IMG/VR virus record: IMGVR_UViG_3300032243_000867
Location: 201,896 to 265,895 of that record
Reading direction: 5' to 3' (one strand)
Origin: a virus
Lineage: Duplodnaviria > Caudoviricetes
Length of the DNA: 64,000 nucleotides
In this document: positions 2,901 through 61,865 of the stretch, piece by piece
Layout: each line of letters opens with the position of its first letter
How positions within the stretch are numbered: position 1 is the stretch's first letter
The notes under the pieces: model-generated
The model's database searches: none
Told to the model about the DNA's origin: nothing
What the model saw: the letters and a program-made list of their open reading frames with translations, nothing else
Position numbers and translations under genes: made by a program

Positions 2901-5900
2901 TGGCCACCTCGGTACAGATTCTCGGTCCCGACAATGTCCTCCGGGAAACCCTCATCTTTAGCACGACGCAGACCGCCCGGTTCTTCACGGGGGTTCTCCC
3001 CGATGACACGGTGGACGTGGAGGTGTCCCTCTTCGGCCAGCCTTTCACCACGGACCCGACGCTGGTCGCGTTTCAGGGCACGGGCTTCGTTGTCCCGAAC
3101 CCCACGGCATACCCCGGCGGGTTGGACCTTTTCTCGGGCGACAACGAGATTCAGGTCCGGGCCGTGTTCCTCTCGGGGACTCGTTCGCCCGCCGCGACCG
3201 CCACGGTGCATCTCCTTCCGGCGAACCAGTCCGAGACTTTCTCCCCTCCCACGGGCGTCACCCTCGAACGTCTGGACGGGTCGGTGAAGGTGACGGTGCT
3301 CGGGCTCTCGGACGCCCGCATTGTCGGATACAACTTCTACGCTTCGTCCACGCAAGGGGGCGGGACGGCGGGTTACTCTCTTCTCAACGTGAACCGGGTG
3401 ACTACGGGGACGCCCGTTCAGAACGTCACCGACCTCTACACCCTCACGGCGGACAACGTAGCTCAGACGGCCACGCCCCTCTACTACCGGGCGGTTATCA
3501 CGCAAGAGAACAGCGCCGAGACGGTTCTATCGACGGACGTAGACTCGCGGGTGGAGATCCCCAGTGCGGTGACGGCTCTTCGGTCTACCGTGACGGTTTC
3601 CTCCGTCGAGACTCTCACCTACTACAGCTTTCAGCACAACCGCTCTGCCTCGGCGCTATCTATCCCCGCCACGATCTTCAACGGGGTGTTCGCTAGCACC
3701 CCGGCGACGGACCTTCTGTACTACGTCTCCACGGCGATCTACTACGACAGCATCCTTCGGGTGGAGTACGAGTCGTACTACTCCACGGAGGTGACGGGGG
3801 CTCCCGCGCAAGTACGCCAACAGATCAACGGCATCACCGCCGTGTCTCGGCAACAGGTTCTGGAGAACGCCATCGCTAGCATCTACCGGCAAAACCCCGA
3901 CATCGCGGTTCAACCGGGCTCGGTGGTGCGGGATACGTTCCTCGACCCGTTCACCACGGAGGCCGAACGTCTCCGTCTCATGCTGGACTACGTGTACCGC
4001 GCGAGTTCGTTCGACACCCTGCTCTTGGTAGACGACCCCTCGGGATCGGGAGTCTCTCAGCCCCCGGCTTCCTCCCCCTACAAGACCGCGCTAGCGGCGG
4101 CGCTGTTCTACGCGAACGTGGACGACGTGCAAAACGTCATCGACGGAAGCTTCGACAAGATCGCCGCGAACTTCGACGTGTTCCGCCTCGCGGGCACCCC
4201 CGCCGTGGGGGAGGTTCGCTTCTACACCTCCGCCGTTCCCTCCCAGACCGTTCAGATTCCTCTGGGAACGGTGGTGAAGGGCGGTGGGGTTGATTTCCGA
4301 ACTACGCGCTCCGCGTCGATGCCGGTGTCCCAGCTCGCTTCGTTCTACAACCCCTCCACCCGCCTTTACTCGGTCACGGTGCCGGTGCGGGCGATCAGCG
4401 TGGGGGCATCTACGAACGTCGGCCCGAACCAACTCACCAACTCGAACGTGTACGGGATGTCCGTTACGAACGATGCGGCGACCTTCGGCGGCGCGGACAT
4501 CGAGACCAATGCGCGTCTCGCCGCCCGCGCCCGGAACTCCCTCGCTTCGGTGGATACGGGTACGACCCTCGGGTATCTCCAAACGGCAGCGGGGGTGCCG
4601 GGAACGATCCAGAACATGGTAGTCCGGGCGGGCGACCCCCTCATGCAGCGGGACTACGACACCACTCTTCAGCGGCACTTGGGCGGGAAGGTAGACGTGT
4701 GGGCGCGGGGGCTCCGCACCGTCACCGTCACGGACTCCTTCGCGTTCACCTACGAACGCCGAGACGGCGTGCAGTTCGTCGTGATCGGCAACCCGATGAA
4801 CTACGTGTTCCGAGCGGTGAGCGAAGAGGTGACGCCCGACAACCCTCTGGCCGCGATGCTGTACTACCCTTCGCTGGACCTGGGGCTGAAGAACGTGACA
4901 ACGGGCACGACGTTCAACCTCACCAACGTCACCTACCTGAACTTCAATACCATCCAGCTCGACGCGACCCTCACGCAACCGCCCGTCACCCTCACGGACA
5001 TCGTGCTAGGGGACTTCCGGTTCCGCCTCGGAAACAAGCACACCTTCGTGCGCCAGCCCGTGAACGCTGTGTCTTCGGTGGTCGGAGACGTTACGGGGTC
5101 GCTAGACTTCGACTTGTTCTCTCTGGTTCACCCGAACGGGCCTCTGGGCCTCGGGTGCAGCACCAAGGCCGGAGACTACCTCCAGATCAACCAGTCCACC
5201 GACCCGGCGGCGGTTACTCCCTCGGGGAACCTCATCCCGGTTTCTTCCGAACCCCACGTCATCACCGGGTTCTACACGGAGTACCTGTACTTCCTCGGTG
5301 CGGAGACTCTCTCCATCGTGGTGAAGGACAACACCAACTCGATTACCTACAAGGGTCCCTACGATCCCAGCGGGTCGCCCGATTACCTCATCGTTGAGGG
5401 CACCTCGACCACGGCGGCGGGTATCAAGCGCACCTCGACCAGCGCGATCCCGGACGGCGCGGTCATTCTCATCTCGTACAGCTACTACGAGAACTTCGCC
5501 GTGACCTACACGACGAACTTGGTGACCTCGGTGCTTCAGCAAGAGCTTGACGACATGGCTCACGCCACAGCGGACGTTCTCGCAAAACAAGCCGTTCTCA
5601 CCCCGGTGGACATCACGGCTACGGTGATTCTGAAGAAGGGCGTGGACCGCGTGAACGCGGACCTCGCGATCCGCAACAATCTCCAGTACCTCGCGGGGAC
5701 GCTCAAGCTCGGTGACCCGATGCGTCGCAGCGACGTGATCGGTGAGATCGACGGGACCGCCGGGGTGTCCTACGTCGTTGTCCCGCTCACAAAAATGGTA
5801 CGGGCGACGGGGTGCCAGATCGTGCGGAACGATCTGGCTACGGGCTCCTTCGCGGACTCGTTCCTCATCCCCGATTGGTCCAACGGCCAGTATCAGACGT

Positions 5901-6265
5901 GGCTGATTCTCGAAGAGCTCACGGCCCCGACCGCTACGGGGGGCGGGCCTATCAACGAGTTTCGTGGGGTGTACCAAGACGACAACGAGCTCACCCTTCA
6001 GTTGTCCGCGCCGCAGAACCTCGCCCTCGCTGGAGGGCAAGCCTACATCATCGGCAGCGAGGGTCAGGTGATCCCCGGTTACGGAACGGGTGCCGTGAAG
6101 AACCGTGTGCTGGTCTCCCTCCCCGTAGGGGACACCCCGACGAACCACACGTACTGGTGTACCTACACCACGTCGGAGGACGTGGGCGACAAGGACATCG
6201 ACCCGAACTCGATGGAGTTCTTGGTGCTGGGTGATGTGCAAATTACGTTTGACGAGGATAGATAG
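2900..6265 (+). CDS. Baseplate J-like (wedge) protein, extended
   Basis: PGSVVRDTFLDP, AGTPAVGEVRF and VTNDAATFGGADIETNARLAARARNSL motifs are typical of Baseplate_J; TGATG overlap with the previous gene. Confidence 0.85.
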   Translation: MATSVQILGPDNVLRETLIFSTTQTARFFTGVLPDDTVDVEVSLFGQPFTTDPTLVAFQGTGFVVPNPTAYPGGLDLFSGDNEIQVRAVFLSGTRSPAATATVHLLPANQSETFSPPTGVTLERLDGSVKVTVLGLSDARIVGYNFYASSTQGGGTAGYSLLNVNRVTTGTPVQNVTDLYTLTADNVAQTATPLYYRAVITQENSAETVLSTDVDSRVEIPSAVTALRSTVTVSSVETLTYYSFQHNRSASALSIPATIFNGVFASTPATDLLYYVSTAIYYDSILRVEYESYYSTEVTGAPAQVRQQINGITAVSRQQVLENAIASIYRQNPDIAVQPGSVVRDTFLDPFTTEAERLRLMLDYVYRASSFDTLLLVDDPSGSGVSQPPASSPYKTALAAALFYANVDDVQNVIDGSFDKIAANFDVFRLAGTPAVGEVRFYTSAVPSQTVQIPLGTVVKGGGVDFRTTRSASMPVSQLASFYNPSTRLYSVTVPVRAISVGASTNVGPNQLTNSNVYGMSVTNDAATFGGADIETNARLAARARNSLASVDTGTTLGYLQTAAGVPGTIQNMVVRAGDPLMQRDYDTTLQRHLGGKVDVWARGLRTVTVTDSFAFTYERRDGVQFVVIGNPMNYVFRAVSEEVTPDNPLAAMLYYPSLDLGLKNVTTGTTFNLTNVTYLNFNTIQLDATLTQPPVTLTDIVLGDFRFRLGNKHTFVRQPVNAVSSVVGDVTGSLDFDLFSLVHPNGPLGLGCSTKAGDYLQINQSTDPAAVTPSGNLIPVSSEPHVITGFYTEYLYFLGAETLSIVVKDNTNSITYKGPYDPSGSPDYLIVEGTSTTAAGIKRTSTSAIPDGAVILISYSYYENFAVTYTTNLVTSVLQQELDDMAHATADVLAKQAVLTPVDITATVILKKGVDRVNADLAIRNNLQYLAGTLKLGDPMRRSDVIGEIDGTAGVSYVVVPLTKMVRATGCQIVRNDLATGSFADSFLIPDWSNGQYQTWLILEELTAPTATGGGPINEFRGVYQDDNELTLQLSAPQNLALAGGQAYIIGSEGQVIPGYGTGAVKNRVLVSLPVGDTPTNHTYWCTYTTSEDVGDKDIDPNSMEFLVLGDVQITFDEDR

Positions 6266-6284
6266 CTTATACCTCTCGGAGGGT

Positions 6285-7361
6285 ATGCGGTTCATCTACG
6301 ACGGTCACGCCAATGAGGGTGGAATCTACCGGATCACCAACCAGATCAACGGTCGGTTCTACATTGGCAGCACTTGTCAGTTCAAGGTGAGATGGGCAAC
6401 CCATCGCCGTGAACTACTCAAGGGGAACCACTGTAACGCATTTCTCCAGAATGACTTCAACAAGTGTGGCGCAGATGCGTTCGTTGTTGAGGTGCTGGAG
6501 GTGATCCCGGACAGGGACTCCCGCCTCTGGGCTGAAGGTGCGCTGATCCGCCAGCACTTCGGAAAGGGGTGTTACAACCTCGAACCTGAAGTAGGCCCCC
6601 ACTATCCAGTGAACTCACGGCCCCGGAAACCGCATACCGAGGCAACCAAGGAAAAAATTCGTCAGGCCAAGCGGGGTAAGAGACTCCCCCCAGAGGTCGA
6701 GGCACAACGTGTAGATGCTGTCCGAGCATCCATGGCAAAACTGAAAGCCACCGGAGGAACCCGTGATTGGGGGGCATCCAAGCGTGGGGTACCTCGAACC
6801 GAGGAAGCCAAGGCCAAAATGCGGGAGTCCGTTGAGCAGCGCCGACAGAATGGGACACTGGTTCTGTCCCCAGAGCAGAGGGATCACCTTCGTCAGGTCA
6901 ACCTCGGCAAAGTCTACGGTCCGCGTAGCGAAGAGACAAAGGCGAAACTGCGGGAGGCCTGGGAGTATCGTCCCAGGGTAGCAACCCGTGGTCCTATGAG
7001 CGAAGAGACCAAGGAGAACATCCGGCGGTCCAAGCTCGGGACCAGCCACACGGAAACGGCACGGGCTAAGATGTCAGCATCACACAAGGGCCGACCGTTG
7101 TCCGACGAGACAAAAGCCAAAATGTCCACCGCACGGAAGGGTCAGGGCACGGGCCGACGCCACTCAGAGGAGACTCGGGCCAAGATGTCGGCTGCGAAGA
7201 AAGGCCGACAGGGACGACCCCTGTCGGATGAGACCAAGGCCAAAATCTCTGCCGCACGGAAAAATCGTAGGTCTGTGCCCCACTCAGAGGAAACGCGGGC
7301 CATGATGTCACTCGCACAACAAAACCGTAGGGCATCCGAGAAGAGTGGGGCTGCACAGTGA
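6285..7361 (+). CDS. Free-standing GIY-YIG homing endonuclease with NUMOD3 repeats
   Basis: GGIYRITNQINGRFYIGST...HRRELLKGNHCNAFLQNDFNKCG nuclease domain, then repeated (H/L/M)SEET(K/R)AK(M/I/L)S motifs; start placed at ATG 6285 after GGAGG. Confidence 0.9.
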   Translation: MRFIYDGHANEGGIYRITNQINGRFYIGSTCQFKVRWATHRRELLKGNHCNAFLQNDFNKCGADAFVVEVLEVIPDRDSRLWAEGALIRQHFGKGCYNLEPEVGPHYPVNSRPRKPHTEATKEKIRQAKRGKRLPPEVEAQRVDAVRASMAKLKATGGTRDWGASKRGVPRTEEAKAKMRESVEQRRQNGTLVLSPEQRDHLRQVNLGKVYGPRSEETKAKLREAWEYRPRVATRGPMSEETKENIRRSKLGTSHTETARAKMSASHKGRPLSDETKAKMSTARKGQGTGRRHSEETRAKMSAAKKGRQGRPLSDETKAKISAARKNRRSVPHSEETRAMMSLAQQNRRASEKSGAAQ

Positions 7362-49960: not shown

Positions 49961-50347
49961 TCACATTTCTGTAGGCCCATGCAGGAACCACGGGGTGAGG
50001 GCCGGGACGTACTCGACCTTGGGGTGTGGGGGCTCCGAGCCCGTGCGCTTCTTGACTTTGGCGAGCACGTCTTCAAGGGACCGCCCGACGTGGACGAAAT
50101 CGTCCAAGGGCCACACGAGGTGGTCGCCGTAGTGCCAAGCGGTGCCCGCGCGCACGGGGACCATCACCTTCTTCGCCCCCGGTTGGCACTCCGCGAGGTT
50201 CCACGGAGACACCTGTCCCATGCGCTTTCCCCCGCCGGGTTCGGCCCATGCGGGGCAGTAGGGGCACGTCCAGAAATCTGTGTTCTTGTAGAGCTTTTCA
50301 CAGGGAGTGCCACACAACGGGCACGTCCAGAAATGATCGCAGTTCAT
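49961..50347 (-). CDS. Zinc-finger protein
   Basis: Duplicated FWTCPxC motifs. Confidence 0.6.
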   Translation of the reverse strand: MNCDHFWTCPLCGTPCEKLYKNTDFWTCPYCPAWAEPGGGKRMGQVSPWNLAECQPGAKKVMVPVRAGTAWHYGDHLVWPLDDFVHVGRSLEDVLAKVKKRTGSEPPHPKVEYVPALTPWFLHGPTEM

Positions 50348-50562
50348 AGGCCAACTTTCGACGGGTCACGGGGTTCCCTTCCCCGAAGGGCGCACCGAAA
50401 CCCGGCATCGTCGAGACGGCACGCAGGCCCGTACGTGTCGCGAGACGCGGCGCGCACCCTCGACGGTACGTTGCTGTACCAACCGCCGCCGCGTTGGACG
50501 CGAAGGCGGGTGTCGGTCGGGTTTGTTTCGTAGGGAGCGGGGGTCTTTCGTGATCTTGCCAT
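50344..50562 (-). CDS. Stand-alone DGR-type variable-region mini-protein C15
   Basis: MARSRKTPAPYETNPTDTRLRVQRGGGWYSNVPSRVRAASRDTYGPACRLDDAGFRCALRGREPRDPSKVGL; GGGCGTAA 7 nt upstream. Confidence 0.8.
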   Translation of the reverse strand: MARSRKTPAPYETNPTDTRLRVQRGGGWYSNVPSRVRAASRDTYGPACRLDDAGFRCALRGREPRDPSKVGL

Positions 50563-50611: not shown

Positions 50612-51055
50612 TCAGAACGTCGCACGTCGCACGTTGGCGAAGGGTAGATTCGTGAGGTCGGCCTCTACGCGGGGAGAGTACTCGGTGGAACCGCAGAAGG
50701 GGCAGGGCTCGCCCGTGTCATGGGCGACATGGTGACACTGCGCGCAGAAGTGCTCCGTGATGCACCCCTCGTCGTCGCACGCATAACACCGCTGTCCCAC
50801 CGTGTGGATGTACGTCCGGGTGGCGATAGCGCCGCACTCGCCGCACTTGGGGAGGTGCTGGCGCAGCAAGGAATCCATCGCCTCGACACGGCGTACCAAC
50901 TCCCGTGCGATCTCCAAGATCTCCGGTCCCGAGGAGTCCACGGGCGCACCGAGGGCTTCACCGATGGCGATGATCTCGTCCAAGTGACGGGCGTCGTCCC
51001 GCAGGGCTTGTTCCAGCAGTTCTTCTTGGGGGGAGTGAATCCGTCGCGGGGTCAC
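50612..51055 (-). CDS. Cys-rich zinc-finger protein
   Basis: CGEC, CYAC, CAQC, CPFC motifs. Confidence 0.65.
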   Translation of the reverse strand: MTPRRIHSPQEELLEQALRDDARHLDEIIAIGEALGAPVDSSGPEILEIARELVRRVEAMDSLLRQHLPKCGECGAIATRTYIHTVGQRCYACDDEGCITEHFCAQCHHVAHDTGEPCPFCGSTEYSPRVEADLTNLPFANVRRATF

Positions 51056-51405
51056 GGTTCACCCCGCTTGGCCCGCAGCTTGGCGCAGTGATCTTCCCAC
51101 ACCCTCGCGGACTCTTCGTCTGACAGGGGCTCTACTTCCACGGTCACCTTCACCCGCATCACCGGGAGGGCCTTGCGGGCGGTGAGTTCGCGGTACTCGT
51201 CCCTCAAGTCCTTGAAGTAGCCGTCCTCGTCCACCTCGTCCTCAAACGCCATAGGGGCCGACGCACGGACGGTTGAACCCCCTGCGTCGAGGACGAAGGC
51301 GCTGATGCCCTTCATCACGGTCTCGTCGGTCCCGAGCCCGTAGATGTAGTTCTCCTCGTAGTCGGCCACGCACAGGGCGTGGCCCTCAAACTTGCTCGTG
51401 CCCAT
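51052..51405 (-). CDS. Hypothetical acidic protein
   Basis: Start reassigned to ATG 51405 (TGATG overlap). Confidence 0.6.
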   Translation of the reverse strand: MGTSKFEGHALCVADYEENYIYGLGTDETVMKGISAFVLDAGGSTVRASAPMAFEDEVDEDGYFKDLRDEYRELTARKALPVMRVKVTVEVEPLSDEESARVWEDHCAKLRAKRGEP

Positions 51406-51944
51406 CACTTCGCACGATACACAGAGAGCCCGTCGTGAATCCCCGACCACTGAGGAAGGCAGACGCACTGCTCCTCGCTCCAGTGCTCGTCGAGGATGCG
51501 ATGGAACTCGTCGTCGGCGGTGCAGCCCCCGGAGCCCTCACCGACGTACACGAGGGTGCTCCCGCCCGCCTCCATGAAGCGAAGGAGGCACTCCGTGCCC
51601 ATCGGCGTGGCATACGGGGGCCACACCAACATGAGCGCGTGGTCCTTGTGCGCGCGGGTGATTACGTCGCACGTCCCCTCCGACACGGGGTGCCAGAGCT
51701 TGCCCGTGGCCCCATCAGAATGGTCTCCCGGTTCGCGGTCGTAGCACTCGACGGTGCCGCCCGCTTCGGCAATGAGGCTGGCCCAGTAGCCGTTCCCGGC
51801 CCCAAGCTCGATGACGGGTTTGCAGAGTCCGACGATGGTCGCGATGGCACGGTCGTCGGGGATCGCCCATGCGTACTCGGCCACGAGGGCGGCACGGGCA
51901 CTCCACCCTCGCTCCCGTTGGGCGCGGAGTTCGTAGGCGTTCAT
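51405..51944 (-). CDS. Class I SAM-dependent methyltransferase-like protein
   Basis: YAWAIPD...VIELGAGNGYWASL...LMLVWPP...LVYVGEGSGGCTA. Confidence 0.8.
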   Translation of the reverse strand: MNAYELRAQRERGWSARAALVAEYAWAIPDDRAIATIVGLCKPVIELGAGNGYWASLIAEAGGTVECYDREPGDHSDGATGKLWHPVSEGTCDVITRAHKDHALMLVWPPYATPMGTECLLRFMEAGGSTLVYVGEGSGGCTADDEFHRILDEHWSEEQCVCLPQWSGIHDGLSVYRAK

Positions 51945-52138
51945 GCACGCACCGCGTGACCTTTGCAGGGCTCGTTTGCCGCCGCTTGCCCCGGTTCTGT
52001 TGACAGGTAGTACAGGGTGTAGTGAGCCCCGCACTTCTCACAGCAGATACGGGTCGGGAGGCTGGACCCGCCGTGGAGCTCCAGCCCCGGCTTCACCCTC
52101 CAGACGTGCGCCCCGTCGTCGATTTTGGACTCACTCAC
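51941..52138 (-). CDS. Small hypothetical protein sharing its first codons with cassette C13
   Basis: VSESKIDDG...CCEKCG; GTGA overlap with C14. Confidence 0.55.
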   Translation of the reverse strand: MSESKIDDGAHVWRVKPGLELHGGSSLPTRICCEKCGAHYTLYYLSTEPGQAAANEPCKGHAVRA

Positions 52139-52326
52139 GGTTTTACTTTCCTCTCACATCCCACACGCGCGCACCGAAACCCCAGGTTGTCGAACCGGTA
52201 CGTCGGACCGTCCCCGCGACGGTCCGCGACGCGCACCCTCGACGGATAGCTGACGCCCCAGCTACCGCCGTGGCTGAGGCGGTGAAGGGTGTCGGAGGTG
52301 GGTTGCTTGGTGGTGGGGGGGTTCAT
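52135..52326 (-). CDS. DGR-type variable-region mini-protein C14
   Basis: MNPPTTKQPTSDTLHRLSHGGSWGVSYPSRVRVADRRGDGPTYRFDNLGFRCARVGCERKVKP. Confidence 0.8.
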   Translation of the reverse strand: MNPPTTKQPTSDTLHRLSHGGSWGVSYPSRVRVADRRGDGPTYRFDNLGFRCARVGCERKVKP

Positions 52327-52334
52327 ACGGGTAC

Positions 52335-52342
52335 TTACGCCC
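52335..52342 (-). promoter_or_regulatory. GGGCGTAA motif
   Basis: 8 nt upstream of the C14 ATG; its TAA is the C13 stop. Confidence 0.5.
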
Positions 52343-52505
52343 GGGGTTCCCTTCCCCGCAGCGCGCACCGAAAACCGAGGCTGCTGTCCCGGAGCGTCGG
52401 CCCGATCCTGTTACGGAACGCGACGCGCACCCTCGACGGATCGCGGTCGTCCCAGCCACCGCCGCGGAAGACGCGGAGGCGGGTGTCGGTCTTGGACTCA
52501 CTCAC
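52335..52505 (-). CDS. DGR-type variable-region mini-protein C13
   Basis: VSESKTDTRLRVFRGGGWDDRDPSRVRVAFRNRIGPTLRDSSLGFRCALRGREPRA; GTGA overlap. Confidence 0.8.
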   Translation of the reverse strand: MSESKTDTRLRVFRGGGWDDRDPSRVRVAFRNRIGPTLRDSSLGFRCALRGREPRA

Positions 52506-52933
52506 GGCTTCACCACGGGCCACGGCACGAGGTTGCCGTCCCAATCAATCGACCGCCAGTACCACACATGGAGTCGGGGGTTCTTTCGCTGGTAGGCGGC
52601 GTACTTCTTGGCCGTCTCGCCGCCCATCACCCGGCAACACGGGCCACCAGAGCGGTGGTCGAAGCTGACCAAGAAGTCCCCTCCGTTGTCGTCGTGCGCG
52701 TCCACCTCCTCGTCGGTGGGGGGCACCGTGCGGTAGTCCTTCGCAGTGAGGGTGGCCTCTCGCAGCACCGTGCGGGCATCGAGCACCTCGATGCCCAAGA
52801 GCTTCCCGTCCGCGTCGTAGTCGATCACGAACGGGCCGTGGGTGTCCCGTCGCACGGACTCACTGGGACGGGTGCCGTCCGGGTTGACGTGCAGGTAGGC
52901 GGCGTTGGCTTCGGCGTCGTATGTGAGTCTCAT
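52502..52933 (-). CDS. DUF2283-like domain protein
   Basis: MRLTYDAEANAAYL...FVIDYDADGKLLGIEVLDA. Confidence 0.75.
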   Translation of the reverse strand: MRLTYDAEANAAYLHVNPDGTRPSESVRRDTHGPFVIDYDADGKLLGIEVLDARTVLREATLTAKDYRTVPPTDEEVDAHDDNGGDFLVSFDHRSGGPCCRVMGGETAKKYAAYQRKNPRLHVWYWRSIDWDGNLVPWPVVKP

Positions 52934-52957
52934 GGCTCTTTTAGAAGATACCGCGGG

Positions 52958-53119
52958 TCATCGCGGCATCTTTCCCGGTAGGTGCGTGCGAAAGCCCAGC
53001 GCACTGTTACATCCCGAGGGCACGCGCGAATGGCGAGCAGACGCGAGCACCCACGACGGATCGTCGTAGAGCCAAGGGCTACTGCGGAAGACGCGAAAGG
53101 CTTTGACCGACGGCTTCAC
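52958..53119 (-). CDS. DGR-type variable-region mini-protein C12 (GFRTHL subfamily; not in the ORF track)
   Basis: Manual translation VKPSVKAFRVFRSSPWLYDDPSWVLASARHSRVPSGCNSALGFRTHLPGKMPR; GTGA overlap. Confidence 0.72.
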   Translation of the reverse strand: MKPSVKAFRVFRSSPWLYDDPSWVLASARHSRVPSGCNSALGFRTHLPGKMPR

Positions 53120-53625
53120 GGCTTCGCCCACGCCTCCGCGAGCACCTCCGCAGGGGCCACGTCACCGTGTCGGGTGGCGAGGTCCGTGGCCCACTCCATC
53201 ACCAGACGCGGGTAATCCCGTGCCTCGGTCCCGTAGGGGACCAGCACCGCCGGGATCACCCCCATCGGGTCGCCGCCGCACTCGCGCGCCGTGGGGTGAT
53301 CGTAGGTATCGAACGCGGTGCGGGACGGGTCACCGGGCCACGGGATCTCCCCGGTCTTCGTCCACCCCCGCGCCACCAGCACCCGCCGCATCGCGTCGGG
53401 CGAGGTGGCCTTGAGGGAGTCCTTGTCGAGACCCGCGAGGGCACGAACCGCACGGAGCAACTGCCCCTGCCCCGCCGCCTCGTGACGGTAGAGGGCAGCT
53501 TGGGCGCGGTGTACCGTGGCTTCACAGTAACGGAGGTCACGGGGTGTCAGCTTCCCTTGGGCAAACAGTTCCGTGCCTTCCGCGAGGTCTTCGAGGGCTT
53601 GGGCGAGGGGGAGCTTCGGGTCCAT
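53116..53625 (-). CDS. Hypothetical protein
   Basis: 169-aa ORF, GGGCGTAA 8 nt upstream. Confidence 0.7.
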   Translation of the reverse strand: MDPKLPLAQALEDLAEGTELFAQGKLTPRDLRYCEATVHRAQAALYRHEAAGQGQLLRAVRALAGLDKDSLKATSPDAMRRVLVARGWTKTGEIPWPGDPSRTAFDTYDHPTARECGGDPMGVIPAVLVPYGTEARDYPRLVMEWATDLATRHGDVAPAEVLAEAWAKP

Positions 53626-59183: not shown

Positions 59184-59447
59184 TTATAGCAGCGGCAGGT
59201 GAAGCCCTACCCACGACCCTAGGGACCCGCCCACCATCAGCCCGATCCATTGGGAGCGCCGCCCGTCTTCGACAAGGCGTTTGATGATTGAGACGTTCAG
59301 CGCCGTACTCAGTACGTCCGTGATCAGCGCGAAGCGGAAGTGTCCTACTGCGGTGGAGCGGACATTCAAGTACCACAGCAGGTGGTAGACGAATTGGGCG
59401 ACCGCGACCGCTAGCGGGGAGGACATAGCCTTGTCCGTGGGGTTCAC
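59184..59447 (-). CDS. Small membrane protein sharing its start with cassette C11
   Basis: VNPTDKAMSS... with hydrophobic helices; GTGA overlap with C11. Confidence 0.6.
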   Translation of the reverse strand: MNPTDKAMSSPLAVAVAQFVYHLLWYLNVRSTAVGHFRFALITDVLSTALNVSIIKRLVEDGRRSQWIGLMVGGSLGSWVGLHLPLL

Positions 59448-59617
59448 GTTCGGGGTTCCCTACCCCGAAGGACGCACCGAAACCCGAGGTTGTTGTCCTG
59501 GTACGCAGGCTCGTCCGCGTTGCGAATGGCCGCGCGCACCCTCGACGGTCCATAGTTGTGCCAACAGCCGCCGCCGCGGAAGACGCGGTCGGAGGTGGTG
59601 GTGTCCGTGGGGTTCAC
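59444..59617 (-). CDS. DGR-type VR mini-protein C11
   Basis: VNPTDTTTSDRVFRGGGCWHNYGPSRVRAAIRNADEPAYQDNNLGFRCVLRGREPRT. Confidence 0.82.
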   Translation of the reverse strand: MNPTDTTTSDRVFRGGGCWHNYGPSRVRAAIRNADEPAYQDNNLGFRCVLRGREPRT

Positions 59618-59784
59618 GTTCGGGGTTCCCTTCCCCGCAGCGCGCACCGAAACCCGATGTTGTTGATACGGTCCGCAGGCACGTACGTGAAGCGAGACGC
59701 GGCGCGCACCCACGACGGTACGTAGTTGCCCCAACTGCCGCCGCGGTAGACGCGGGTGTCGGAGGGCTTGGTAGGAGGGTTCAT
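59614..59784 (-). CDS. DGR-type VR mini-protein C10
   Basis: MNPPTKPSDTRVYRGGSWGNYVPSWVRAASRFTYVPADRINNIGFRCALRGREPRT. Confidence 0.85.
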   Translation of the reverse strand: MNPPTKPSDTRVYRGGSWGNYVPSWVRAASRFTYVPADRINNIGFRCALRGREPRT

Positions 59785-61516: not shown

Positions 61517-61686
61517 GTTCGGGGTTCCCTTCCCCGCAGCGCGCACCGAAACCCCAGGTCGCCGTACCGGTTCGCAGGCCCGTTCGTGTTGCGAGACGCC
61601 GCGCGCACCCACGACGGTGCATAGTTCCAACAGCCGCCGCGGCCGACGCGGAGACGGGTGTCGGAGGGCTTGGTAGGGGGGTTCAT
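61513..61686 (-). CDS. DGR-type VR mini-protein C3
   Basis: MNPPTKPSDTRLRVGRGGCWNYAPSWVRAASRNTNGPANRYGDLGFRCALRGREPRT. Confidence 0.85.
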   Translation of the reverse strand: MNPPTKPSDTRLRVGRGGCWNYAPSWVRAASRNTNGPANRYGDLGFRCALRGREPRT

Positions 61687-61865
61687 ACTCGGGGTTCCCT
61701 TCCCCGCAGCGCGCACCGAAACCCCAGGTGGAGGAGCCGGAGCGCAGGCACGCCCGAGTTGCGAGACGCCGCGCGCACCCACGACGGTGCATAGTTCCAA
61801 CAGCCGCCGCGGACGACGCGGAGACGGGTGTCGGTCTTGGGTTGCTTGGTGGTGGGGGGGTTCAT
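61683..61865 (-). CDS. DGR-type VR mini-protein C2
   Basis: MNPPTTKQPKTDTRLRVVRGGCWNYAPSWVRAASRNSGVPALRLLHLGFRCALRGREPRV. Confidence 0.85.
   Translation of the reverse strand: MNPPTTKQPKTDTRLRVVRGGCWNYAPSWVRAASRNSGVPALRLLHLGFRCALRGREPRV

What the first reader, a model, noticed from the sequence alone, without database searches (positions are those of the whole stretch)
52125..52507. Direct repeat flanking C13+C14 duplicates a gene start, like a target-site duplication
Seen: TTGGACTCACTCACGG at 52125-52140 and 52492-52507 (22 bp with 2 mismatches when extended). C13 and the downstream gene both begin GTGAGTGAGTCCAA (VSESK). Similarly, C11 and gene 59184-59447 share 30 bp around their starts (59432-59461 and 59602-59631). 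Inference: cassettes insert at gene starts and capture the resident translation signal, possibly through ectopic cDNA integration.
Basis: partly seen in the sequence, partly recalled or inferred. Interest (0 to 1): 0.7.

Follow-up and report, generated by a model that had tools for sequence, protein, structure and literature searches.

The report
Linker repeat bounding a two-cassette indel
The repeat is real and marks both ends of a 367-bp block of two tiny "lectin-tip" genes that a close relative lacks, but it is the arrays' own start-signal linker recombining with itself, not a footprint of transposition or cDNA insertion.

Summary
Observation confirmed. The 16-bp repeat is exact at 52125-52140 and 52492-52507 (29 nt at 86%) and was never reached in 100 shuffles. 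The second, 30-bp repeat at 59432/59602 is also exact.

The predicted empty allele exists. In ENA scaffold L045 the DUF2283 gene abuts the 65-aa gene with one repeat copy. The window has exactly 367 bp more (C13+C14). Another relative (L029) has one cassette there, also flanked by the repeat.

The repeat is not target DNA duplicated by an inserting element. It is the array's inter-cassette linker: a Shine-Dalgarno-like tail, a GTGA stop/start overlap and the first 5-7 codons. It recurs at 9 other boundaries in three phages. Its left 13 nt are the native DUF2283 3' end, so the cassettes do reuse a resident translation signal. Its right half is cassette-type. More distant orthologues of the 65-aa and 87-aa genes lack it, so those genes took a cassette head.

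The only matching DGR template, in a bacterial MAG, covers the 118-nt core only, so the repeat lies outside it. No RT, integrase or resolvase lies on the contig.

Best reading: cassettes are gained and lost by recombination between linker copies, as with PeSL shuffling in T4-type phages. Earlier notes of this scan had already described the minigene system itself on this genome.

The parts
52485..52513 (-). JL: left copy of the linker repeat (exact core 52492-52507). It comprises the last codons of DUF2283 (GGTGAAGCC), the GTGA stop/start overlap and the C13 head VSESKTD.
52118..52146 (-). JR: right copy of the linker repeat (exact core 52125-52140). It comprises the C14 tail ..KVKP*, the GTGA overlap and the first 7 codons (VSESKID) of the 65-aa gene.
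52335..52505 (-). C13: 56-aa minigene (VSESKTD..GFRCALRGREPRA*) consisting only of the C-terminal FGE-sulfatase/CLec variable segment.
   Evidence: Pfam PF03781 E=5e-6, profile positions 207-254 of 255; cassette HMM 96.9 bits
52135..52326 (-). C14: 63-aa minigene (MNPPTTKQ..GFRCARVGCERKVKP*). Its tail holds the Shine-Dalgarno-like sequence for the next ORF.
   Evidence: Pfam PF03781 E=1.7e-6
52324..52345 (-). T1c linker between C13 and C14: TAA stop, 8-nt spacer, ATG. The same linker flanks the permuted pair U3+U4 at genome positions 71219-71568.
51941..52138 (-). 65-aa resident gene (no Pfam family). Its first 7 codons are a cassette-type head. Orthologues in L060 (MSFSNTRSTTGDAVEGHVW) and L025 (MKHEW) lack that head.
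52502..52933 (-). DUF2283 gene. Its 3' end GGTGAAGCC-NTGA is conserved in all relatives and is followed by at least 7 different contents.
59444..59617 (-). C11: 57-aa minigene starting GTGAACCCCACGGACA (VNPTD). It is absent from relative G001.
59614..59784 (-). C10: 56-aa minigene (MNPPTKPSDTRVY..). The single cassette R1 in G001 equals the C10-type head plus the C11-type tail.
   Evidence: 0 of 90 non-A mismatches to the template repeat
59184..59447 (-). 87-aa membrane gene. Its codons 1-7 (VNPTDKA) are an added cassette head. Cassette-free orthologues (80 aa) start at the internal MSSPL.
59432..59461 (-). Second repeat, copy at the start of the 87-aa gene. The partner copy lies at 59602-59631 at the start of C11.
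50344..50547 (-). Single cassette A5 with a read-through tail, followed by the 128-aa gene (49961-50347). That gene starts MNC-DHFW here and in L045, but VS-DHFW (first 10 nt of the cassette head) in G001 and L029.
52958..53119 (-). A7: degenerate cassette upstream of DUF2283. The ATGA after it opens a 6-codon remnant ORF (52961-52941). At this point G001 has five further cassette-HMM matches (one without a clear start codon) plus two genes.

Best explanation
The repeat is the inter-cassette linker of the phage's arrays of variable-region minigenes. The linker is a translation-initiation module. It consists of a Shine-Dalgarno-like AGGTGA in the last codons of the preceding ORF, a 4-nt spacer, a GTG start overlapping the TGA stop, and the first 5-7 codons of the next ORF. 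One copy precedes each cassette of this subtype. A partial copy has been fused in frame to the first resident gene after the array.

Because two copies flank C13+C14, homology-driven recombination between them removes or adds whole cassettes. This could be unequal crossing-over, slippage, or excision and re-entry of a small circle. The result is a natural allele series at this site with 0 cassettes (L045), 1 (L029) and 2 (window).

Shown: the repeat; the clean 367-bp indel; the recurrence of the linker at other boundaries; its composite origin, with a resident DUF2283 3' end on the left and a cassette head on the right; and the fact that the DGR template does not reach it.

Inferred: that recombination between linker copies, rather than an insertion machine, made the indel; that AGGTGA acts as a ribosome-binding site; and the direction of each individual event.
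For: - L045 equals the window's left flank plus its right flank, with one copy of CCGTGAGTGAGTCCAA. The window has exactly 367 bp more, and the flanks show 4-5 mismatches per 200 nt.
- L029 has one cassette (VSDPKTDN..ERKVKP*) between the same genes, and the 65-aa gene there starts VSDPKTDD.
- The junction GGTGAARCC-GTGAGYRAY recurs at 5 boundaries in G001, 2 in L029 and 1 at genome position 71398. A third copy in L029, after DUF2283, reads GCT for GCC.
- Tail type predicts head type, so tail plus head behaves as one unit.
- The pair at genome positions 71219-71568 is the circular permutation of C13+C14, flanked by the other linker.
- R1 in G001 is a hybrid of the C10 head and the C11 tail.
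- Array sizes differ between relatives: 3 versus 1 cassette after the scaffold gene, and five further cassette-HMM matches plus two genes versus none upstream of DUF2283.
- Cassette-free orthologues of the 87-aa gene start 7 codons later. A third allele carries MNPPYKA, another cassette-head form.
- The 65-aa orthologues in L060 and L025 lack the head.
- GGTGAAGCC-NTGA ends DUF2283 in about 10 alleles with at least 7 different downstream contents. Allele type is incongruent with the DUF2283 tree.
- The template repeat matches cassettes only from CTCCGCGTC to GGTGCGCGC (118 nt). Mismatches fall at A sites versus non-A sites as follows: C10 11/26 versus 0/90, L029a 18/26 versus 4/92.
- Precedent: recombination between short regulatory cassettes causes insertions, deletions, replacements and mini-circles in T4-type phages (PMC2839356).
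Against: - The two copies within a genome are more alike than orthologous copies between genomes. They read VSESK on both sides in the window and VSDPK on both sides in L029, with 1-2 versus 3-4 differences in 21 nt. Independent insertions that each duplicated the target would explain this directly. My model needs gene conversion, or contraction to one copy followed by re-expansion.
- The exact homology is short (16 nt; 23 nt with the array linker at 71398).
- The most distant relative with the same gene pair (L060) is empty, so an empty ancestor is possible.
- No circle or within-population size variation was seen; the reads available were contigs that break inside cassettes.
- The contig is only 59% complete, so a phage RT or recombinase could lie in the missing part.
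Confidence: 0.6

Rival explanations
1. True insertion into an empty DUF2283/65-aa junction, with duplication of 16-29 bp of target. The mechanism would be replicative template switching or microhomology-mediated repair that copied one or two cassettes from another array. It would have happened independently in the window and L029 lineages.
For: An empty allele exists. The most distant gene pair (L060) is empty. Repeat copies are more alike within a genome than between genomes. The left half of the repeat is resident DUF2283 sequence.
Against: The empty allele already carries the cassette-type head (SESKID), which the L060 and L025 orthologues lack. The site therefore seems to have held a cassette before. 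The same linker sits at array boundaries elsewhere. Repeat length is not constant between sites.
Confidence: 0.17
2. Ectopic integration of DGR cDNA: a reverse-transcribed cassette integrates at a gene start and duplicates it.
For: The cassette cores carry an adenine-specific mismatch pattern against a template repeat that lies next to an RT in a delta-proteobacterial MAG.
Against: That template repeat aligns with the cassettes over the 118-nt core only. The heads, tails and the repeat all lie outside it. C13 and C14 have many non-A mismatches (12/92 and 18/92), so they are not fresh cDNA copies. No RVT_1 match was found in this contig or in G001. From established knowledge of BPP-1, DGR homing replaces a variable region and leaves no duplication.
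Confidence: 0.04
3. Site-specific, integron-like cassette capture at a recombination site that coincides with the start codon.
For: Promoterless small cassettes sit in arrays at a position that supplies expression signals. Breakpoints in many alleles fall within a few nt after the start codon.
Against: No tyrosine integrase or resolvase match was found in 266 kb. The repeat contains no inverted repeat. Breakpoints vary between +4 and +21. Non-cassette genes are swapped at the same junction.
Confidence: 0.04
4. Assembly artefact: C13+C14 were looped in from another array through the shared repeat.
For: No single Logan contig spans the body of C13.
Against: Both outer junctions are reproduced without mismatch in run X1 contigs. 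The shared exact sequence (16-23 nt) is shorter than usual assembly k-mers. L029 and L062 independently show DUF2283 followed by a cassette.
Confidence: 0.03

Closest known systems
PeSL regulatory cassettes of T4-type phages (Arbiol et al. 2010, PMC2839356; PMC4122927)
   Same: Short repeated expression signals flank small non-essential genes in hyperplastic regions. Recombination between copies gives clean insertions, deletions and replacements between near-identical phages, and can release mini-circles.
   Different: PeSLs are a promoter plus a terminator stem-loop lying between genes. Here the repeat is a translation-initiation linker that is itself coding on both sides (the tail of one ORF and the head of the next). 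It joins DGR-type variable-region minigenes. No circles were observed here.
Target-site duplications of transposons and retroelements
   Same: Direct repeats flank the extra DNA, and the empty allele has a single copy.
   Different: The repeat is part of the repeated unit itself and recurs at other array boundaries. Its length varies between sites. No transposase, RT or terminal repeats were found.
DGR mutagenic retrohoming (Bordetella phage BPP-1 type; cellular DGRs with several or remote targets, PMC3521204, bioRxiv 10.1101/2023.09.22.558884)
   Same: The cassette cores are FGE/CLec variable regions whose mismatches to a template repeat fall at its adenines. Multiplication of targets by duplication is known.
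   Different: The feature examined here (linker, heads and tails) lies outside the template repeat. The targets are stand-alone 56-63-aa ORFs in tandem arrays. No RT was found on the phage contig.
Tandem-array concerted evolution and solo-LTR formation
   Same: Unit number changes by recombination between flanking direct repeats. A single hybrid repeat remains after loss. Hybrid units occur. Copies within a genome are more alike than copies between genomes.
   Different: The repeats are only 16-30 nt long and double as ribosome-binding and start signals.
Integron gene cassettes
   Same: Arrays of small promoterless cassettes are expressed from signals supplied at the insertion point.
   Different: No integrase, attI or attC-like inverted repeats were found.

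Membership tests
Target-site duplication of a mobile element | Direct repeats flank the insert, and an empty allele has one copy | tested here: met
   L045 has one copy and lacks exactly 367 bp
Target-site duplication of a mobile element | The repeat is target sequence, unrelated to the element and different at each insertion site | tested here: not met
   The same junction lies at 9 other boundaries in three phages and at genome position 71398. Its right half is cassette-head sequence.
Target-site duplication of a mobile element | Constant duplication length, and an associated transposase, RT or integrase | tested here: not met
   Repeat lengths are 16/29, 30 and 17 nt. No PF00078, PF00589 or PF00239 match was found on the contig, which is 59% complete.
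DGR retrohoming product | Differences from a template repeat are confined to its adenines | tested here: inconclusive
   Met for many cores (C10 11/26 at A sites versus 0/90 at non-A sites). C13 and C14 show 12/92 and 18/92 non-A mismatches. The template is in a bacterial MAG, not in the phage.
DGR retrohoming product | The altered or duplicated sequence lies within the template repeat / variable region homology | tested here: not met
   The template homology ends at CTCCGCGTC and GGTGCGCGC. The repeat lies outside it on both sides.
Recombination between repeated regulatory cassettes (PeSL-like shuffling / unequal crossing-over) | Short repeats at gene boundaries coincide with indel and replacement breakpoints between close relatives | tested here: met
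   Alleles with 0, 1 and 2 cassettes, plus at least 5 other contents after the same 13 nt. C11 present or absent.
Recombination between repeated regulatory cassettes (PeSL-like shuffling / unequal crossing-over) | Hybrid units or hybrid repeats at the joints | tested here: met
   The L045 junction equals the JL left half plus the JR right half. R1 equals the C10 head plus the C11 tail. The L029 cassette equals a C13-type head plus a C14-type tail.
Recombination between repeated regulatory cassettes (PeSL-like shuffling / unequal crossing-over) | Excised circles or size heterogeneity within one population | not testable with these tools
   Only Logan contigs were available, and they break inside cassettes
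Integron-like cassette system | Tyrosine integrase with attI/attC sites | tested here: not met
   No PF00589 match. No inverted repeats at the junction. The genome is incomplete.

The most novel reading that the evidence does not exclude
The variable-region minigenes are mobile as one- or two-cassette units. Recombination between linker copies would excise them as small circles, or copy them, and re-insert them at any gene start that carries the linker. The phage would then shuffle DGR-diversified binding tips between operons and between co-infecting genomes without any dedicated recombinase, each tip arriving with its own ribosome-binding and start signal.
Probability: 0.15. Interest if true: 0.65.

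Novelty: new variant of a known kind. Interest (0 to 1): 0.4.

Why it matters
It shows how a phage's library of stand-alone hypervariable "binding-tip" genes changes in size. Whole cassettes come and go between near-identical phages at a short repeat that is also the translation start signal. The neighbouring ordinary genes have been rewired to start from a cassette head. This extends the known repertoire of repeat-mediated modular shuffling in phages from promoter/terminator cassettes to in-frame translation-initiation linkers. It also removes the need for a new cDNA-insertion activity. The natural alleles with 0, 1 and 2 cassettes give a concrete system in which array dynamics could be measured.

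Tried and rejected
- Read laying on 51400-53200 with four runs. Only Logan contigs were available and they break inside cassettes. No trustworthy joint skipping C13+C14 was seen: the 541-nt skip has a side of 20 and the 142-nt skip a side of 29. One 131-nt contig of X4 joins a C14-like tail to a VSDPKPSD cassette, which hints at a longer array elsewhere but does not show a circle.
- Searches for the 128-aa and 87-aa genes in five other viral records found nothing.
- The viral-contig scan with the 65-aa gene gave only the distant L025. With DUF2283 it gave only G001.
- No empty allele was found for the permuted pair at genome positions 71219-71568. L047 has a longer type-I array in front of the same gene and the same last junction.
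- RT, tyrosine-integrase and resolvase searches were negative on an incomplete contig.
- The 19-nt motif AGGAARGTRAARCCGTGAG occurs in 7 unrelated IMG/VR contigs at apparent ..RKVKP*/VS.. gene junctions. That number is close to my rough chance expectation, so I use it only as a hint that the tail is a coupling signal.
- A simple parsimony polarity for the indel was rejected, because allele type is incongruent with the DUF2283 tree.
- An earlier idea, that the VVKP* end of DUF2283 came from a cassette, was dropped once cassette-free alleles showed the same end.

Full report
**Setting.** The window is the last 64 kb of a 265,895-bp IMG/VR phage contig (59% complete by CheckV). On the minus strand it carries arrays of 50-63-aa ORFs. 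Each ORF is only the last segment of the FGE-sulfatase/C-type-lectin fold (RGGxW..GFRCA). Pfam PF03781 matches C13 (E=5e-6) and C14 (E=1.7e-6) at profile positions 204-255 of 255. A cassette HMM finds 24 copies in the contig and 11 in the first 40 kb of a close relative, G001 = IMGVR_UViG_3300023174_000096. Earlier notes of this scan on the same genome had already described these minigenes and a bacterial template. I re-derived what I use from them.

**The observation.** The 16-mer is exact at 52125-52140 and 52492-52507. Shuffles give an expected count of 0.09, and 0 of 100 reached two matches. It extends to 29 nt at 86% with a spacing of 367 bp. Read on the coding strand, both copies are a stop/start junction.
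- The upstream ORF ends ..VKP and its TGA overlaps a GTG start, followed by AGT GAG TCC AA.
- The left copy (JL) joins DUF2283 (52933->52502) to C13 (52505->52335).
- The right copy (JR) joins C14 (52326->52135) to a 65-aa gene with no Pfam family (52138->51941).
Its 16-nt specific part, GTGAACCCCACGGACA, begins both C11 and the 87-aa gene at 59184-59447.

**The empty allele.** A protein search with the 65-aa gene returned one 94%-identical protein on ENA scaffold L045.
- There DUF2283 is followed directly by the 65-aa gene and then the methyltransferase-like gene.
- The alignment shows that L045 equals the window's left flank plus its right flank, with a single CCGTGAGTGAGTCCAA.
- The window has exactly 367 bp more, and the flanks differ at 4-5 positions per 200 nt.
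- A third relative, L029 (SXGQ01497405.1), holds one cassette at the same place (VSDPKTDN..SERKVKP*). Its 65-aa gene starts VSDPKTDD, so the repeat again flanks the insert.
- Two further contigs, known only from gene coordinates, have a 173-nt gap before the 65-aa gene, which fits one cassette.
- For the second example, G001 has one cassette (R1) before the 87-aa gene where the window has C10+C11. R1 has a C10-type head and a C11-type tail.

**What the repeat is.** Aligning 22 cassettes with their flanks shows a conserved core flanked by a few discrete tail and head types, and the tail type predicts the next head type.
- The tail ..GAAAGGAAGGTGAARCC plus GTGAGYRAYCCCAAGACCGAC (..ERKVKP* / VS[NDE][PS]KTD) is one such linker.
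- It occurs at five boundaries in G001, at two in 6.4 kb of L029, and between U3 and U4 at genome position 71398. A third copy in L029, after DUF2283, reads GCT for GCC.
- In G001 and L029 it also precedes the 128-aa gene, which starts GTGAGTGATCAY-TTCTGG there. In the window and L045 that gene starts ATGAACTGCGATCAC.
- The pair U3+U4 (genome 71219-71568) has the same heads and tails as C14 and C13 but in the other order. It is flanked by a 17-nt repeat of the other linker, CCACGGGCGTAAGTACC. The two loci are circular permutations of one two-unit period.
- The tail contains AGGTGA seven nt before the start. By inference from the usual anti-Shine-Dalgarno sequence, this is a ribosome-binding site.

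**Who captured whom.**

The left 13 nt (GGTGAAGCC + NTGA) belong to DUF2283. They end that gene in about ten alleles, whatever follows:
- cassettes (window, L029, L062);
- the 65-aa gene (L045);
- a 60-aa gene (G001, L058, L068) or its remnant (L061);
- another small gene (L066);
- a spacer (L057).

The right half is cassette-type. CCCAAGACCGACACC also occurs inside a long type-I head at 61686-61865. More distant orthologues of the 65-aa gene lack it: L060, also directly after DUF2283, starts MSFSNTRSTTGDAVEGHVW, and L025 starts MKHEW.

For the 87-aa gene the evidence is clearer. Four cassette-free orthologues are 80 aa long and start at the internal MSSPL or MASPL, behind their own intergenic region. 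One allele behind a decayed cassette starts MNPPYKA, and the window and G001 start VNPTDKA. Both are forms of the seven-codon cassette head MNPPTKP. Here the resident genes took a cassette head.

C11 in turn carries the diverged gene version of that head, so copying has gone both ways.

**cDNA.** A DNA pattern from the invariant cassette positions found one genome, a delta-proteobacterial MAG. It holds an RT, a template repeat (..RVNRGGSWNNNEPSWVRAASRNTNEPANRNNNIGFRCA..) and two full-length targets.
- Many cassette cores differ from this template almost only at its adenines: C10 11/26 at A sites versus 0/90 at non-A sites, R3a 12/26 versus 1/90, L029a 18/26 versus 4/92.
- C13 (12/92) and C14 (18/92) have many other changes.
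- Template homology stops at CTCCGCGTC and GGTGCGCGC. The heads, tails and the repeat lie outside it.
- No RVT_1, tyrosine-integrase or resolvase match is on the contig, and no RVT_1 match is on G001.
- An integrating template cDNA therefore could not have brought or duplicated the repeat.

**Mechanism.** The junction after DUF2283 is a replacement hot spot, and allele type is incongruent with the DUF2283 tree. The window's nearest DUF2283 (98%) belongs to the allele with the 60-aa and 102-aa genes. Breakpoints in several alleles lie within a few nt after the start codon. Array sizes differ elsewhere as well:
- three versus one cassette after the scaffold gene;
- five further cassette-HMM matches plus two genes versus a 28-nt remnant upstream of DUF2283.

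The simplest account is homology-driven recombination between linker copies, with selection keeping products in which every ORF retains a coupled start. This is what recombination between PeSL regulatory cassettes does in T4-type phages, including clean indels and mini-circles (PMC2839356).

**What remains open.**
- The polarity of the 367-bp event is not settled.
- The two copies are more alike within a genome than between genomes: VSESK twice in the window and VSDPK twice in L029. Independent insertions with target duplication would explain this directly. My model needs conversion, or contraction followed by re-expansion.
- I therefore give the recombination reading 0.6 and a true microhomology-mediated insertion about 0.17.

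**Verdict.** The target-site-duplication and cDNA mechanism is not supported. The feature is a new variant of repeat-mediated modular shuffling, of moderate interest.

Noticed in passing
L024 (G001) 5543-6574 and L029 4778-5938: In two relatives a cassette (VSNPKTD..GFRCARGGSE) has lost its stop and reads in frame into the FGE/CLec scaffold gene (MKIELALYS..WEWCDSLYYR*). The variable segment therefore sits at the N-terminus of the body it should complete. The join (GGGCGTAATACGGGCATGAAG) resembles the T1c linker.
   Followed up: partly
window 51415-50998 versus L045 1380-1551: The 138-aa gene (51052-51468) is absent from L045 and L029 and is replaced by a short stretch that encodes a small Cys-rich ORF (..RSHCPEVGVCVLCG..). 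In L066 that ORF follows DUF2283 directly, after the same GTGAG.
   Followed up: partly
L047 (IMGVR_UViG_3300023174_000057) about 2250-2480: The last cassette before the MDDDTLKQF gene has a head with a (Lys-Pro)n run (MKPPTKPKPKPKPKPKPTDTR). This is a hexanucleotide expansion inside the cassette head.
   Followed up: no
L061 1925-1945 versus L068 1925-2110: The 60-aa gene after DUF2283 has a CTG in place of its start in L068. In L061 it is deleted down to four codons, with a GAC microhomology at the joint.
   Followed up: partly
L036-L044 (7 unrelated IMG/VR contigs): The 19-nt motif AGGAARGTRAARCCGTGAG lies at apparent gene junctions reading ..RKVKP* / VS.. in phages without cassettes. Five of the contigs share one gene family.
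   Followed up: partly
L028 (CAISKJ010000074.1) 1-2470 and L027 4284-5999: A delta-proteobacterial MAG carries an RT, the template repeat and two full-length CLec targets. One target is fused to a caspase-like N-terminal part. The targets' ..NVWEWTSTVDGN.. matches the point where the phage scaffold gene is cut (..NVWEWTSTVHK*).
   Followed up: partly
window 52335-52505, 52135-52326 and G001 R3d (L024 6758-6931): C13, C14 and R3d share non-adenine differences from the bacterial template (GGCGGTRGCTGG, GCGCGTCGCG, GGGCCGACG). This may mark a second template subfamily or old decay.
   Followed up: no
L029 2753-3004 versus L001 4429-4611: The 60-aa gene lies upstream of DUF2283 in L029 but downstream of it in G001, so gene order is shuffled around the same hot spot.
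   Followed up: no
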